This document shows, piece by piece, positions 27,001 to 36,000 of a stretch of 64,000 nt of DNA (its first letter is position 1; each line of letters begins with the position of its first letter). Source of the stretch: Candidatus Obscuribacterales bacterium (lineage in GTDB: Bacteria > Cyanobacteriota > Vampirovibrionia > Obscuribacterales > Obscuribacteraceae). A program made the position numbers. The stretch lies in assembly GCA_965228855.1 (NCBI GenBank), contig CBDDIJ010000003.1, forward strand, positions 1,472,001 through 1,536,000, given 5' to 3'.

Positions 27001-30000
27001 TCGGTATACGATCTCACAATGGCTCTAAAGCACCGCGGGCTTAGACTTTCAGCTTCTTCAGAGCTTTTCGGGCGATCTGGTGTTGCTTGCGTTCGTTAGG
27101 ACCTAATTCCGATTCGCCGACTAAATCAATGATAGCCAAACCGTTCCTATATAGAGGAACGGCTCCAGGCTTACCAGAAGATTCCAGAGCTTTTGCTTCG
27201 ACGATCATAAGCGCGCCGATCATGGGATCGTCCGAGCCTATTTCACGTGAGAATTTTGTGCGGAGCTCGCGTGCGAGCTGGATGGTCTTGTCGAAGCGAC
27301 CGACATCAAGACACGCCACCGTCCAGGAATATTCGTTCTCGCGGTGCTCTTTAGAACTTGCCCCCTTCAGCTGTTCGCTGAGTTTGAGAAGTCGCTCCTG
27401 TTGTTTGTCCGCGGCGTCAAAATCCTTAAGATGAAGAAGCGTCAGCGTATACATCTTCAGTGTATTTAGTTCACCGTTTTTGTCTTTCATTGCTCGATAA
27501 TCGGAAAGCAGCTTCCGTTGAAGCTCTTCGGCTCCTTTGAACTGGTTGAGTTTGTACAAACAGAAACTCATCCCTGTTTCTACAGCGCGGGTATTTTGTT
27601 TCTCGCTTGGTCTGGCTTTGCAGGCCGCGTATGCTTTTTCGTAGATCTTCAGAGCTTCTGCATAGCGATGCTCGATGAATTCCTTCTCTGCATTTACGCT
27701 CCATGTCTCGACTAGTGGCGAACCGGTAGTCTTGAAAGTCATGGTTGGAAACTGCTCTTGCAAAGCGCGAATCTGCTCTTCGCTAGCTGAGACAAGCACT
27801 GTTTGAATATTTAGATTCGATTTTGCAATGGTCTCGGCGTCTTTTGCCTTACAGTAAGTGACGCGAAGATCGATCGAAAGAAGGTTTGGGAGTTTTGCGG
27901 CGACAGCTATCGCACCTGGTCCAATGTCATTTCTGGACAGAAGAAGATTCTCGAGAGTCGGCAGGGCTGCAAGAGCGTCGAGACCTTTGTCGGTTATGCG
28001 CGTTTCGATCAGTGACAGGTCTTTTAGCCGCAATCCTTTCAGGTTTTTAAGAGAGTCGTCGTCAACCTCAGTCTGATCGAGCCTCAACAATTTCAGCTTT
28101 TCGAGTCTTGCGATATCCTTCAGAGTTTTGACTTTTGTGTTTGTCAGTATCAGCGTTTCAAGATTCGGAACGTTGCTCAGATGCTCGATTCCGCGATCCG
28201 AAACATCACTGTCAGATGCATTGATCTCTTTCAAACTCGTTTTCCCTGACAGCACGAGCAAATCGTCATCTTGGCACGCGTGACGCAGATCCATTCTAAT
28301 TAGACCGGACTTTTTCATGTGCTGAATTAGTTTTGCGCGCTGACTTTTTGCCAAAGCTTTCTTAGAGTCGAGGTCCAAATTTTGCTCGAAGGTTGACGGT
28401 GTCGACGAAGATCTGACCTGAGGTCTCTCTGAGAGAATCGAATATACGACTGTGCACAAACCGATCAATGCGATTAAAACAACGACGGCGAGTAGCTTCC
28501 CAAAGTTTGCGGACTTGCGTTCTTTCGGAAGGTCGACACCAAAGCTTTGCGCAGGGATTTCGATACGGTAGTCGTGAGACTCAGGCAGGGGCTCGCGAGA
28601 AACATCGGTCAAACCTCTTTCAAAGTTTGCAAGCGCTTCGGAAACTTCAGCTGCTGTTTGATATCTTTCGTCCGGATTTTTGCTCAAACACTTTTCGATT
28701 ATCGCGCACAGCTCGGGCGAAACGTCCGGAGCCAATTCCTGCAGCGGTAAGACGTCAGATCGCATGTGTTTATTGAGAACTTCCAGCGACGACTCACCGG
28801 AAAACGGAGGCTGACCGGCTAGCGATTCGTACATGATGCAACCGAGCGAATAAATTTCAGATCGAGCATCGTATTCTAAACCCGAAGCCTGGTCGGGGCT
28901 CATGTAGCCTGGTGTTCCGACTACGGTGCGTCCCTGGACATTTGTTCTTGCTTGAACATCTTGAGTGGTTTTTGAAAGTCCGAAATCGATCAATCGCAGA
29001 TCAAATTCGCCTGTTTCTGTTTCAAGCATCAAAATATTCGATGGCTTCAAGTCTCGATGAAAAATTCCATGCTCGTGAAGATGGCTCAGGGCCTCGCAGA
29101 TAGACTGAAACATTACACAGCTATCATACTGTTCGAGAAAACCGTGATCGCGGATCACTTCTTCGAGACTTCGACCGGGGAAGTATTCCATAACCATGTA
29201 AGGACGTCCGCTTGCGGAGGTTCCGAAATCGAACACCTTGATCACTTTCTCGTGACTTAGTTTTGATGCGGTTTTTGCTTCTTGCTGAAACGAGACGACT
29301 CGATCGTCAGTCAAGGCGAACAAACTTTTCAGTGCGACCTTTTTGCGCAGATGCAGGTCACGGCACAAGTAAACTTGACCGAGTGCGCCTTGTCCAAGGA
29401 GCCGGAGCGGTTTATAACGGCTGGTTGGGAACAAGGTTTCATCAATGTCTAAGGGCTGTTCGCTTGGATCGTCATCTTGATCATCGAAGGCTTTGCTTTT
29501 AAAAGTGGTGCCGGAAGTTTTTACTTTTACAGGTTGAGGATTTTCGCATTTGCAAAGATGCTCGGCGAAAATCCATTGGGTTACGCTTCCGCTTCGCCCT
29601 TCCTTCATACGTTTTCCGCAAGCTCGGCAAACAGTTATGAGTTCGCTTTCAGGTGCTCCGGTCAAATTGCATTGGCAGCAGTTTATCCACTGAGTGAGAG
29701 AACCGGACCCGCTGACATTCTTTGGCTTCTGGCAGGTTTGGCAGATGTCGCTGTTGCTCTCAGTCATTTCTTTCGCACTTCCTCGCGAGCATCTGGATTG
29801 TCGCCTTCTCTAATTTTCGAGCGAGCCGCCTGGCGTTTCTCTCGTTTTGATTCGCTGCGCTTGTTTCGAAGATCTATCAATACAGACGCTTTTCTTTTGA
29901 ACTCGGCACTTTCGCGAACAAAGCCGTTTTCCTCAAGTAGTATTCCGTGTTGCGTCGTAAGAGCGATCCTGTCAAGCAATGGTAACTTTGCGGTTTTCAT

Positions 30001-33000: not shown

Positions 33001-36000
33001 ATGCTCGCATAGAGGTCACCCAGTGCGATCGCCGAATAGAAGGTGTCCACCGCATTCTGGCCGAATCGGTCTCTGAAAATACGATGCAATGCTGCAGCAT
33101 ACTTAATACTACCAGCGGTATCATGATGGCGTTGGGCGAGTTTTTTAGCGCTATCGTACAAAACAATCGCAGACGTTTCCACACCTTGGGACTCGGCGGT
33201 TGTCGCATAAGATTCGAGCATTCGCAGTGCTTGTTGCCAATCGCCAAGTTTTTCATAGCAATCAGCTATTCGTCCCTGGTAATTGACGATTCGAATTTTT
33301 CCGCTTCCATTCTGCAGGCGAATGCAGCGTTTATACAGGCTGAGCGCGTCCTTGAAGTTCCCATCTTTGTATAGTTCTTCAGCCTTTAATTCTACTCCGT
33401 TCAGATTGCGCATACTTGCTGAAGGATCGAAGTCCACCTTGGGGAATTCGCGAGTGAGTTTTGCGACTTCCGCTACATCGAACTTAGGGCTGTCCGCTGT
33501 GTCGACGGCCATAACGTGTTTTAGACCGGAGACAAGCTTGCGCACACCACCAGGGGTGATGGCACTGTTTCCAATGTTGATGTAAGCCAAATGCTTTTGT
33601 CTAAGCAGGTCCGGTATACATGCATCAGTCAAGGACTGACCGCCGAAACTGACATCTGTCAGTCTGGGAAGTTCCGGAAGGTTAGCGAGAAACTTGTCCG
33701 TGATATCTGTCTTGCATATTCGCAGCCAGAAAAGCTTGTTGAGTCCCTTGAGATTTTTTGCAGATCCGTCTGTAATGGCCGTGCGGTTCAAGGAAAGCAA
33801 TTCAAGATTCGCGCATTGATTCACACCAGCTAAAGTTTCAACGCCTGTACCGTCCAGTTCGATACGCTTAAGGTTAGGAAGCGTTGCAAATGATTTGAAA
33901 CATTTGTCGCTTAAGCTCAAGCTGTCCGAAACCGCGATCTCCTGTATGTTGTTGTTGCCTTCGAGAACTTTCAAGTCTTCGTCGGTGCAGGAGTACGGGA
34001 GCTTGACTTTGGTAGTCTTATTTTGAACTGCGCTCTCGGCGACTCGCTTCCCATCTGACAGATCAGCCGTTAACCCGTCCGTCATTTGATTTGCATCTAT
34101 CGAATCCGGCAGGTAGGAGATTCGCGGAGACTCTGGTGGTTTCAACAGGGATTTCACGCCCCAGATTGCAAACGAGACGAGCACGAGACCGGCAACAATT
34201 CCGAATACCGTTAACTTTGAAATTGAATTGTTGGGTGCGTGATAGTTCTGAAACTCCCTGGACAGTTCTTTTGATATCGTCGAATTCCCCTCAATGAATT
34301 CGCCGTTGAAACGGATTTGCGAAGTGGAGGCACGGCTCGACAGTATACTGCCTGCGGTGTCACGTGGGGCGTCACTCACACAGAGTTTCAATTCTGCCAG
34401 CAACTCGCTCATTGTTGCATAGCGAGCATCGCGCTTTTTGCTCAGGCATCGCTCGATGACTTCGTTTAAACGATCCGATAATTCCGGAGTGAGTCGCTGT
34501 GGCGGAATAAGTTTTTCGTTAGCGTGCTTGTTTAAAACGTCCAGCGCAGTTTCTCCGAGAAAGGGCGGTCTGCCGGTAATGACCTCATACATCAGGCAGC
34601 CCATGGAGTACACTTCGGACCTCGCGTCGTATTTCTGACCAGCGACCTGGTCAGGGCTCATGTAGGCAGGTGTGCCGACAACAGTTCGTCCCTGAACAAC
34701 CGTCTTCGACTGAATATCCTGGCTAGTTTTCGACAAATTAAAATCAATCAGACGCACGCTCAGTTGCTTCTGGTCGTTTGAGCCAATGAGAATGTTCGAC
34801 GGTTTCAGATCCCGATGAAAGACACCATTCTCGTGCAAACACGCAAGCGCATCGGTTATCATCACGAACAAATCGAGAGCGTCTCGCTCTGGCAAGCGGC
34901 CCTCTGCGGCAAGAATATCTTCGAGGCTTTGACTGGGAAAATATTCCATGACCATAAATGGTCTGCCACCGTCAGTGACACCAAAGTCCAAGATTTGAAT
35001 TATGCTTTCGTGCCCTAAGCGACTGGCGATTCGCGCCTCATTTTGAAAAGACACCACTCTATCATCAGTCACGGACAGCAGCGTTTTAACAGCTACCGTC
35101 TTGCCCAGGTGCTTATCCATGCAAAGATATACGCGACCCAGCGCGCCCTGACCGAGTAACTCCAGCGGTTTATAGCGATCCGTGGGGACAGATGATGAAT
35201 CAATGTCGAGCGCAGCAGAGTTCTCGCCGTTCATTCCAAATTGACTCTCCCAATCACAGCTTTCAATCGGAGGACGAACACTCAGGCTAAAGGTCAGACC
35301 CTTGCAGCTATAAAACCGAATAGACTTATTGGACGCCCAGGCCGCTTGATGCGCAATATGGTTGTTCCCCGCTAGTGTGTCTGGCTACTCGCGACACGTA
35401 TTAAAGCTCATGAGCTTAAACCGCAAGAGCCTGAAAACAGGTCCTTGAAATGACTTGAAGGTGGAACCACCCGGACCCGGGCTATTGGGAGATCGTAAAC
35501 CGATATCGGTTTGCGATCTCCAATGGAGCGCAAACCGATATCGGTTTGCGATCTCCAATGGAGCGCAAAGCTTGTCACGGCAGGGCTTTCAGGACTCGTG
35601 CGCCAGACCTATTAAATCCCAGGGCAGTTTTAAGCGGTTCGCAGAACTTTCGCAAAGCCCGTCTGTATCTTCTTTCCAATTGCGCTGTTGGAATGGGACG
35701 GTATACAACGGAAGTAGATGCATTAGCCTTAGTAGTTATCTCGAATCCTCCCTCACTCTCACAAAAGTGAGCCCAGGCAGTGCGATAAGGAAAGTTGGAG
35801 GTTATATGGACGGAAAGAACCCCGCCGGACTTTTTTGTGCTCTGGCGAACCGGTTACTGGAATTTTGCGGTCTGTGCCCAAATCGCGATTCTGAGCGAAA
35901 ACGCCTGGCTAGTCTAGCCCGACCGAATCACGAGGACGGCTCGCAAGAGATCGGTCCGCATACGGTTGCGGTACCGACCTCTCAAGATGTCCGTGCGGCA

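What a model noticed while it worked through the whole genome (the two positions that open the first line are those of the whole stretch)
27041..35234. Sixty membrane receptor kinases with leucine-rich-repeat ectodomains within a 178-member Hanks kinome
The genome encodes 178 Hanks-type Ser/Thr kinases (2.8% of genes), and 60 of them share one architecture: N-terminal kinase, one transmembrane helix, then a ~200-residue leucine-rich-repeat solenoid, often followed by TPRs (e.g. the tandem g03307-g03309). I read these as a diversified family of surface receptors that sense extracellular ligands through LRRs and signal by phosphorylation, a bacterial counterpart of plant LRR receptor kinases with the domain order inverted, perhaps for recognising prey, hosts or kin. 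Such a large LRR receptor-kinase repertoire in a bacterium would be new.
Evidence so far: Pkinase on 178 genes, second only to TPR_8. blastp of the regions behind the kinase domain joins 59 kinases in one cluster, of which 14 carry a Pfam LRR_6 row. Each of 18 inspected has the kinase at the N-terminus and one hydrophobic 19-mer 25-60 residues behind it. Alignment A3 of 18 ectodomains shows LxxLxLxxTxIxD periodicity. AlphaFold2 on A3: pLDDT 83, residues 40-230 at 90-98, eight strand-helix repeats. An HMM from A3 finds 74 proteins at E<1e-5, 60 of them kinases, in 7 tandem groups. PF25372 is recorded in 41 of 103 Obscuribacteraceae and in no other of the 3,329 Cyanobacteriota. Two paper searches gave only unrelated papers.
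(Added by a program. Inside this text positions count along the whole contig: contig position 1,472,001 is position 1 of the stretch shown here. "Call 12" and the like, gene names such as g00115 and contig names such as C1 are that model's own, and its searches are not shown. The text may have been shortened before it was handed on; [...] marks where a part breaks off. The agent that wrote the report below was given it as the finding of a first reader that could run no searches.)

Follow-up and report, generated by a model that had tools for sequence, protein, structure and literature searches.

The report
Sixty bacterial LRR receptor kinases
A non-photosynthetic relative of cyanobacteria devotes a third of its roughly 180 protein kinases to one family of membrane receptors whose outer part is a leucine-rich-repeat binding module, a repertoire that recalls plant receptor kinases, although single genes of this build also occur in other bacteria and the ligands are unknown.

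Summary
Confirmed. The genome has 181 kinase ORFs; 61 carry kinase, one membrane helix and a 24-residue-period LRR solenoid, and 60 keep all catalytic residues. 59 of 60 fall in one 72-member kinase clade.

Corrections:
- Only 9 of 61 have long (TPR-type) tails.
- Kinase-then-helix is the usual bacterial order, not an inversion.
- The cell is diderm, so the LRRs face the periplasm, not the surface.
- The build also occurs in Planctomycetota, Chthoniobacter and probably Bacillota. Two planctomycetes counted hold 5-6 and at most 7 copies. The scan noted a clostridial form earlier, on other DNA.
- A close relative keeps 59 of 61 orthologues under purifying selection (LRR dN/dS about 0.14, concave face 0.11), which argues against kin or arms-race recognition. 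Distant congeners share only about 30% LRR identity.

New: an undescribed tandem four-cysteine T-Q-W-I module on 20 members, and five kinase-less membrane LRR proteins.

Best reading: periplasm-sensing receptor kinases, each with a fixed protein or peptide ligand. The scale and the clade are new; the architecture is not unique.

The parts
27041..29767 (-). Receptor kinase 1 (908 aa): Cys module - kinase - TM - LRR - TPR
29537..29752 (-). Tandem pair of CxxC...G-S-x-T-Q-W-I...CxC modules (residues 6-77), predicted cytoplasmic, probably zinc-binding (inferred)
   Evidence: no Pfam family over cut-off; Atlas scores <0.9; 116 of 120 listed relatives are kinases
28625..29419 (-). Hanks kinase domain of gene 1 (residues 117-381), catalytic K, HRD, N and DFG intact
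28436..28492 (-). Predicted transmembrane helix of gene 1 (residues 426-444, hydropathy 2.8)
27737..28303 (-). LRR solenoid of gene 1 (residues 489-677)
27044..27700 (-). TPR tail of gene 1
   Evidence: TPR_12, E 1.7e-8
29764..32496 (-). Receptor kinase 2 (910 aa): kinase 31633-32436, TM 31465-31521, LRR 30754-31332, TPR tail
32493..35234 (-). Receptor kinase 3 (913 aa): kinase 34386-35177 (DFN in place of DFG), TM 34155-34211, LRR 33435-34013, TPR tail
26090..26653 (+). OmpH/Skp periplasmic chaperone gene, syntenic flank of the array
26986..27020 (.). 35-nt palindromic repeat just downstream of the array; further copies at 35491-35560 and 36481-36683 on the other side

Best explanation
A lineage-specific family of about 60 single-pass inner-membrane Ser/Thr receptor kinases of the PknB topology. 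The kinase (and, in 20 members, an N-terminal four-cysteine module) lies in the cytoplasm. The LRR solenoid, in 9 members followed by a long TPR-type tail, lies in the periplasm. Each paralogue binds its own periplasm-accessible protein or peptide ligand on the concave LRR face. Binding brings kinases together, they phosphorylate each other's activation loops, and then cytoplasmic targets. The family grew by duplication, dispersal and ectodomain exchange. Specificities stay fixed between close relatives and turn over between species (birth and death). Shown: architecture, fold, intact catalytic residues, clade, purifying selection, turnover at the syntenic locus. Inferred: topology (hydropathy plus charge bias), periplasmic location, ligand class, dimer-driven activation (from general knowledge of PknB-type kinases, recalled).
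For: 61 kinase+LRR ORFs with a helix between the two domains. K/D/N/D intact and HRD in 60 of 61. At least one Ser/Thr in all 57 activation loops parsed. K/R excess on the kinase side within 8 residues of the helix in 37 versus 8 of 60; uncharged stretches of 16-28 residues fit one span, not a hairpin. LRR fold. Omp85 and OmpH present. 59 of 60 in one clade, SH 0.92, with no foreign kinase inside. Nearest-paralogue identity: LRR median 29%, kinase 49%. Orthologues in G048, 59 of 61: dN/dS kinase 0.078, concave positions 0.109, other non-core LRR positions 0.147, highest single-gene LRR value 0.31; concave lower than other in 42 versus 17 genes, p=0.003. Clade members with TPR-only ectodomains.
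Against: No ligand, partner or substrate was identified. No recurring partner gene: neighbours are miscellaneous housekeeping and signalling genes. The charge bias is only a trend with 15-residue windows (p=0.077) and vanishes at 20-30 residues. On a reduced 63-row IQ-TREE the LRR label needs 3 changes, so strict monophyly is not shown (shuffled mean 20). Pairwise dN/dS cannot see selection at a few sites, and my regex classed only a median of 4 repeats per protein as concave. Syntenic copies in more distant congeners keep only 29-33% LRR identity against 71-79% for flanking genes, which leaves room for episodic diversifying selection. Only 9 FHA and 6 PP2C matches stand against 181 kinases, so the output side is unexplained.
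Confidence: 0.6

Rival explanations
1. Non-self or kin recognition: the LRRs detect foreign proteins that reach the periplasm (phage ejection proteins, contact-delivered effectors, competitor or kin surface proteins) and trigger defence or social responses, like plant pattern-recognition receptors.
For: Large repertoire, tandem arrays, broken copies. Copy number at the window locus is 3, 3, 2 or 0 in congeners, and LRR identity falls to about 30%. The repertoire is patchy across genera: 17 in G016, no full-length match among 63 listed for G024. Kinase-less TM-LRR proteins exist. Receptors for conserved non-self patterns could also be under purifying selection.
Against: 59 of 61 genes are kept in a relative at dS 0.31, with concave dN/dS 0.11. 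No defence, toxin or mobile gene among 40 neighbours scanned with Pfam. The outer membrane bars direct contact with prey or host surfaces. I saw no evidence of predation in this order (PMC4040986 passages).
Confidence: 0.15
2. The LRRs are pairing or localisation scaffolds rather than ligand sensors: they join kinases to each other, to the kinase-less TM-LRR proteins or to envelope machines (for example the export path of the 45 giant secreted proteins), and so report envelope state.
For: Translationally coupled tandem genes (4-base overlaps). Five TM-LRR proteins without kinase. Both OmpH genes lie within two genes of TPR-tailed members (p=0.001 uncorrected). A conserved concave face fits fixed self partners.
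Against: The giant-protein family is not enriched among neighbours (3 of 45, p=0.20). The OmpH link may be one old segmental duplication. Paralogue LRRs share only about 29% identity, more than one common scaffold role needs.
Confidence: 0.15
3. The hydrophobic segment does not cross the membrane once, and the LRRs are cytoplasmic sensors.
For: Ectodomain cysteine counts show no even-number bias (25 of 60 even); soluble LRR proteins without a signal exist in the genome.
Against: A single uncharged stretch of 16-28 residues, with a positive-inside bias. The same N-terminal module also occurs in front of a helix followed by PDZ and TPR domains.
Confidence: 0.04
4. Neutral or selfish proliferation, or an assembly or contamination artefact (contamination estimate 5.8%).
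For: Scattered insertion among unrelated genes; slightly low G+C (0.488 versus 0.517).
Against: Orthologues in a second genome under strong purifying selection. The array is syntenic in G048 at 89% DNA identity. The family is present in other genera.
Confidence: 0.03

Closest known systems
Bacterial single-pass Hanks kinases of the PknB/PrkC/StkP topology (kinase - TM - extracytoplasmic sensor)
   Same: Domain order, RD kinase with intact motifs, one helix, C-terminal ectodomain. This is the commonest bacterial arrangement (25 of 42 families; bioRxiv 2025.01.12.632604 section 8).
   Different: An LRR solenoid instead of PASTA repeats. About 60 paralogues in one clade. An extra N-terminal four-cysteine module. 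'LRR' and 'leucine' have 0 hits in that preprint's main text; its supplements could not be seen.
Plant LRR receptor-like kinases and receptor-like proteins; LRR-RKs of oomycetes, Ectocarpus, Monosiga and Chlorella (Dievart et al. 2011, PMC3268121)
   Same: Extracytoplasmic LRR joined through one helix to a Ser/Thr kinase; a large paralogous repertoire with tandem arrays; kinase-less membrane LRR companions.
   Different: Opposite order (kinase first, no signal peptide), bacterial-type kinase, helix-containing 24-residue repeats, and a periplasmic location. That survey of 884 bacterial genomes counted only LRR-TM-kinase order and lists no bacterium. The resemblance is convergence, not homology of the whole protein (inferred).
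Kinase-TM-LRR proteins of Planctomycetota, Chthoniobacter (P0081) and Bacillota-dominated clusters
   Same: Same order and a similar repeat: 34 of 78 planctomycete-type loci; 81 of the top 150 library representatives; Atlas clusters led by Planctomycetota and Bacillota.
   Different: Mostly longer proteins with extra domains. Their kinases lie outside the clade. Few per genome where counted: 5-6 of 84 kinase matches in G062, at most 7 in G120. No N-terminal module.
Large myxobacterial kinomes (353 in Minicystis rosea, 317 in Sorangium cellulosum; PMC8436480) and a Pseudomonas aeruginosa kinase with LRRs (PMC1262709)
   Same: A kinome of 180 is large but has precedent; kinase plus LRR in one bacterial protein was noted in 2005.
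   Different: The passages read report no membrane LRR receptor repertoire.

Membership tests
Hanks-type bacterial Ser/Thr kinase | Pkinase domain with VAxK lysine, alphaC Glu, HRD, catalytic-loop Asn, DFG, P+1 loop | tested here: met
   Pfam; 60 of 61 keep K/D/N/D, HRD 60, DFG 59
Hanks-type bacterial Ser/Thr kinase | Catalytic activity and autophosphorylation | not testable with these tools
   needs an assay
Single-pass bacterial receptor kinase (kinase-TM-ectodomain) | One membrane helix C-terminal to the kinase, N-in/C-out | tested here: met
   Prediction only: 60 of 61 at hydropathy >=1.7, the last at 1.6; K/R bias 37 versus 8 near the helix
PASTA kinases (PknB/PrkC/StkP) | Extracytoplasmic PASTA repeats | tested here: not met
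   No PASTA hit in the three window proteins; the ectodomain is LRR plus TPR
Plant or eukaryotic LRR-RLK / LRR-RK | Signal peptide - LRR - TM - kinase order | tested here: not met
   All 61 have the kinase first; definition in PMC3268121
Plant or eukaryotic LRR-RLK / LRR-RK | Kinase of the RLK/Pelle clade | not tested
   No eukaryotic kinases were placed in my trees; the nearest kinases are the genome's own bacterial ones
Plant or eukaryotic LRR-RLK / LRR-RK | Ligand binding at the LRR activates the kinase | not testable with these tools
   no ligand known
LRR solenoid | LxxLxLxxN/T/C repeats forming a curved strand-helix solenoid | tested here: met
   A1, period 24 in 41 of 61, pLDDT 87.8, VIA Z 17-20 to LRR proteins
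Diversifying immune or kin receptors | Raised dN/dS on the concave face; presence/absence variation among close relatives | tested here: not met
   Concave dN/dS 0.109; 59 of 61 orthologues kept. One genome pair only; copy number does vary among distant congeners.
Known zinc-ribbon families (DZR, Zn_ribbon) | Pfam score over the curated cut-off for the N-terminal module | tested here: inconclusive
   Only sub-threshold hits (best E 0.001) in 9 modules scanned

The most novel reading that the evidence does not exclude
Obscuribacterales have independently evolved a plant-like receptor network: dozens of LRR receptor kinases plus kinase-less LRR co-receptors that survey the periplasm for non-self proteins or peptides (phage, competitors, hosts). 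They signal through an undescribed zinc-binding T-Q-W-I module whose invariant threonine is a phospho-docking site. This would be a bacterial pattern-recognition system built on receptor kinases.
Probability: 0.15. Interest if true: 0.9.

Novelty: new variant of a known kind. Interest (0 to 1): 0.62.

Why it matters
LRR receptor kinase repertoires have been treated as a eukaryotic invention that arose several times. Here a bacterium with a third of its kinome in such receptors shows the same solution, with duplication, ectodomain exchange and kinase-less companions, reached on the bacterial kinase-first chassis. It gives 60 natural periplasmic binding modules, each wired to a kinase, in an almost unstudied sister group of the cyanobacteria. 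It also makes testable what a free-living diderm cell senses with protein-binding rather than small-molecule-binding domains. The N-terminal four-cysteine module is a separate undescribed domain. The finding loses some surprise because the architecture is widespread at low copy number in other phyla and no function is shown.

Tried and rejected
- Single-sequence AlphaFold2 of the ectodomain: pLDDT 53, not used.
- Even-cysteine bias as a sign of export: none (25 of 60), uninformative.
- Linkage to the 45 giant secreted proteins as ligands: not enriched (3 of 45, p=0.20).
- A recurring partner gene: none beyond small clusters among 204 neighbours. The 40 neighbours scanned with Pfam (of 204) are miscellaneous.
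- Expression: no RNA holder listed. The runs laid were contigs only, so no statement on expression.
- Atlas search with the N-terminal module: best score 0.82, below the useful level.
- The word-index search with A1 was capped at 8000 candidates, and the representatives search was swamped by kinases; neither gives a census.
- Planctomycete G065 has 102 first-look LRR candidates and was not counted gene by gene.
- Eight paper searches gave no paper on bacterial kinase-TM-LRR receptors or on kinases of this order. PMC2877116 has no LRR mention. Subscription papers on planctomycete and myxobacterial kinomes (recalled, not seen) may list the architecture.
- The sequence look-up among earlier findings returned nothing.
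Full report
Observation. The stretch 27041-35234 holds three minus-strand genes of 908, 910 and 913 aa that overlap by four bases. 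Each has a Pkinase domain near the N-terminus and TPR hits at the end; Pfam sees the LRRs only weakly. With the genome laid I built kinase and LRR profiles by jackhmmer from the first gene. They found 181 kinase ORFs, 74 LRR ORFs and 61 with both. An HMM from a 40-row ectodomain alignment (A1) gave 75 and 61. The tool's own PF00069 search had 190 first-look candidates, 150 of them scored. One of the 61 is a truncated ORF; one more kinase-plus-helix gene is followed by an overlapping LRR-only ORF. So 60 intact genes is right.

60 of 61 have one hydrophobic 19-mer 22-59 residues behind the kinase; the last scores just under my threshold. 60 of 61 keep the catalytic K, D, N and D and the HRD motif. 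AlphaFold2 on A1 gave pLDDT 87.8, and the structure matches are all LRR solenoids. The commonest repeat period is 24 residues (41 of 61).

Topology and place. Within 8 residues of the helix, K/R are more frequent on the kinase side in 37 proteins and on the LRR side in 8. With 15-residue windows this is only a trend (p=0.077), and at 20-30 residues it is gone. The uncharged stretch is 16-28 residues long, enough for one span. The kinase needs ATP, so the LRR is outside the cytoplasm (inference). The genome encodes Omp85 and OmpH, and Melainabacteria are described as diderm (PMC4040986, passages). A near-identical relative of one member is named Candidatus Obscuribacterales (P0051). The ectodomains therefore face the periplasm and cannot touch prey or host surfaces directly. 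The kinase-then-helix order is not a peculiarity: it is the commonest bacterial one, in 25 of 42 families (bioRxiv 2025.01.12.632604, section 8 read whole).

Origin. In a FastTree of 199 kinase domains, 59 of the 60 intact LRR kinases lie in one clade of 72 (SH 0.92). That clade contains none of the 20 foreign kinase-LRR proteins included; the exception among the 60 is C3:3733570. The 13 non-LRR members are truncated copies or carry other ectodomains, three of them TPR-only, so ectodomains are exchanged within the clade. A reduced IQ-TREE (63 rows; the 13 in-clade non-LRR rows left out) needed 3 label changes against a shuffled mean of 20, so clustering is strong but strict monophyly is not shown. 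Nearest paralogues share a median 49% identity in the kinase and 29% in the LRR. Five further proteins have an N-terminal helix and an LRR but no kinase, four of them with a shared juxtamembrane motif; they parallel plant receptor-like proteins.

20 of the LRR kinases begin with a CxxC...G-S-x-T-Q-W-I...CxC unit, 19 of them with two copies. It also occurs in 4 other kinases and 2 non-kinases, one of them a module-helix-PDZ-TPR protein. Eight cysteines and both threonines are invariant in 13 rows. No Pfam family reaches its cut-off. Of 120 listed database relatives, 116 are kinases and 99 are kinase-TM-LRR; those with a specific taxon name are Obscuribacterales, Melainabacteria or 'Cyanobacteria'. 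T-x-x-[I/V/L] occurs in 225 of 240 copies. This resembles the FHA-binding phosphothreonine consensus (recalled, a lead only). The genome has just 9 FHA and 6 PP2C matches.

Range. Within the order, 60 of 61 genomes match A1. First-look candidates run from 5 to 145; 36 of 61 genomes, in seven genera, have 45 or more. Candidates overcount genes: G016 (another genus, 5 Mb) has 53-56 candidates and 17 kinase-TM-LRR genes. G049 has at least 13 full-length matches among 86 listed. G024 has none among 63 listed despite 195 kinase candidates, and G001 (other family) none among 14. Kinome size in the order is 16-237 candidates, so a large kinome and the LRR clade expand separately. In 100 other genomes of the phylum, 1 matched at E<=1e-30, a contig-end fragment.

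Outside the phylum the architecture exists. It appears in P0004, P0019, P0046, P0049, P0058, P0081 (Chthoniobacter), P0082 and P0097; in 34 of 78 loci related to P0019, nearly all titled Planctomycetota; in 81 of the top 150 library representatives; and in Atlas clusters led by Planctomycetota and Bacillota. Copy numbers are low where I counted: 5-6 of 84 kinase matches in G062 and at most 7 LRR frames long enough in G120. Among 101 Planctomycetota the most candidates were 65, against 119 here. G065 has 102 and was not resolved. A1 is built from this genome, which biases these comparisons in its favour, and myxobacteria and verrucomicrobia were not surveyed.

Selection. The congener G048 carries the whole window array at 89% DNA identity. 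I fetched its kinase-sized A1 matches and paired 59 of 61 genes. At overall dS 0.31, dN/dS is 0.078 in the kinase, 0.066 at LRR core leucines, 0.109 at the concave exposed positions, 0.147 elsewhere in the LRR and about 0.3 in the helix and inner juxtamembrane. No gene's LRR exceeds 0.31, and concave positions change less than other non-core LRR positions in 42 genes against 17 (p=0.003). This is what fixed, paralogue-specific binding surfaces give, and not what kin tags or an arms race give. The limits are one genome pair, a simple counting method and a partial assignment of concave sites.

Over longer distances the family turns over. At the window locus G026 has 3 genes and G030 has 2; G034 has none in the 5.4 kb next to OmpH. 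The best pairs share 58-63% in the kinase and 29-33% in the LRR, against 71-79% for flanking genes.

Context. The 204 neighbouring genes form no large family. The 40 scanned are miscellaneous enzymes, two-component and TPR genes, with no defence or toxin family. A 45-member family of giant secreted proteins is not enriched nearby (3 of 45, p=0.20), while both OmpH genes are neighbours (p=0.001, uncorrected).

Mechanism. The most likely reading (0.6) is periplasm-facing receptor kinases, each binding its own protein or peptide ligand on the LRR concave face and activating by ligand-driven pairing and loop phosphorylation. Architecture, fold, intact catalysis, clade and purifying selection are shown; topology, ligand class and activation are inferred. 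Rivals are non-self or kin recognition (0.15), scaffolding or envelope surveillance through fixed self partners (0.15), cytoplasmic LRRs (0.04) and artefact or neutral spread (0.03).

Literature. Dievart et al. 2011 screened 884 bacterial genomes, counted only the LRR-TM-kinase order and list no bacterium (PMC3268121, passages). Krupa and Srinivasan 2005 note one Pseudomonas kinase with LRRs (PMC1262709, passages). Kinomes of 317-353 are known in myxobacteria (PMC8436480, passages). PMC12599244 (passages) and PMC2877116 (term search with no hits) add nothing. Eight searches found no description of this family; the library lacks most subscription papers.

Verdict. The feature is real and is a new variant of the bacterial single-pass receptor kinase. 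The novelty lies in the scale, the single clade, the kinase-less companions and the N-terminal module, not in the architecture alone. Interest 0.62.

Noticed in passing
window 2274-24887 (-); 44 relatives across the genome: A 7537-aa secreted-type protein with no Pfam hit in its first 700 aa belongs to a family of 45 giant proteins (933-9530 aa), a second large expansion in this genome.
   Followed up: partly
window 26090-26653 and G000:C3:2160492-2161070: Both OmpH/Skp genes lie within two genes of TPR-tailed LRR kinases; possibly one old segmental duplication.
   Followed up: partly
window 26986-27020, 35491-35560, 36481-36683: A 35-nt palindromic REP-like element flanks the kinase array; 11 sites in the genome, 6 of them in this window.
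   Followed up: partly
L039, L040, L202, L203, L204 (G000 C2:2109557, C3:1677949, C2:2195801, C5:640227, C3:2693432): Five membrane-anchored LRR proteins without kinase, four sharing a juxtamembrane motif; possible co-receptors or decoys.
   Followed up: partly
L190 (G000:C3:739849-741282): The four-cysteine T-Q-W-I module also heads a conserved non-kinase protein with a helix, PDZ and TPR domains.
   Followed up: partly
G000:C3:2190461-2193818, 2362676-2365674, 2683877-2687795, 3123327-3126534, 3319475-3322340; C5:91197-94843, 409749-412919: A separate set of tandem kinase pairs with N-terminal membrane helices and a C-terminal kinase, i.e. the eukaryote-like order (N-termini printed).
   Followed up: no
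G000:C2:1978370, C3:1231270, C3:2656678, C3:3068699, C5:612660: Kinases with an N-terminal response-regulator-like region fused to a Hanks kinase (sequences seen; domain recalled by eye, not scanned).
   Followed up: no
P0009: A kinase-TM-LRR protein filed under the dinoflagellate Durusdinium trenchii in EukProt has a bacterial-type kinase (39% to this genome's); probably bacterial contamination.
   Followed up: no
L198 (G000:C5:490904-492220): A soluble LRR protein fused to DUF4240, one of several signal-less LRR proteins in the genome.
   Followed up: no
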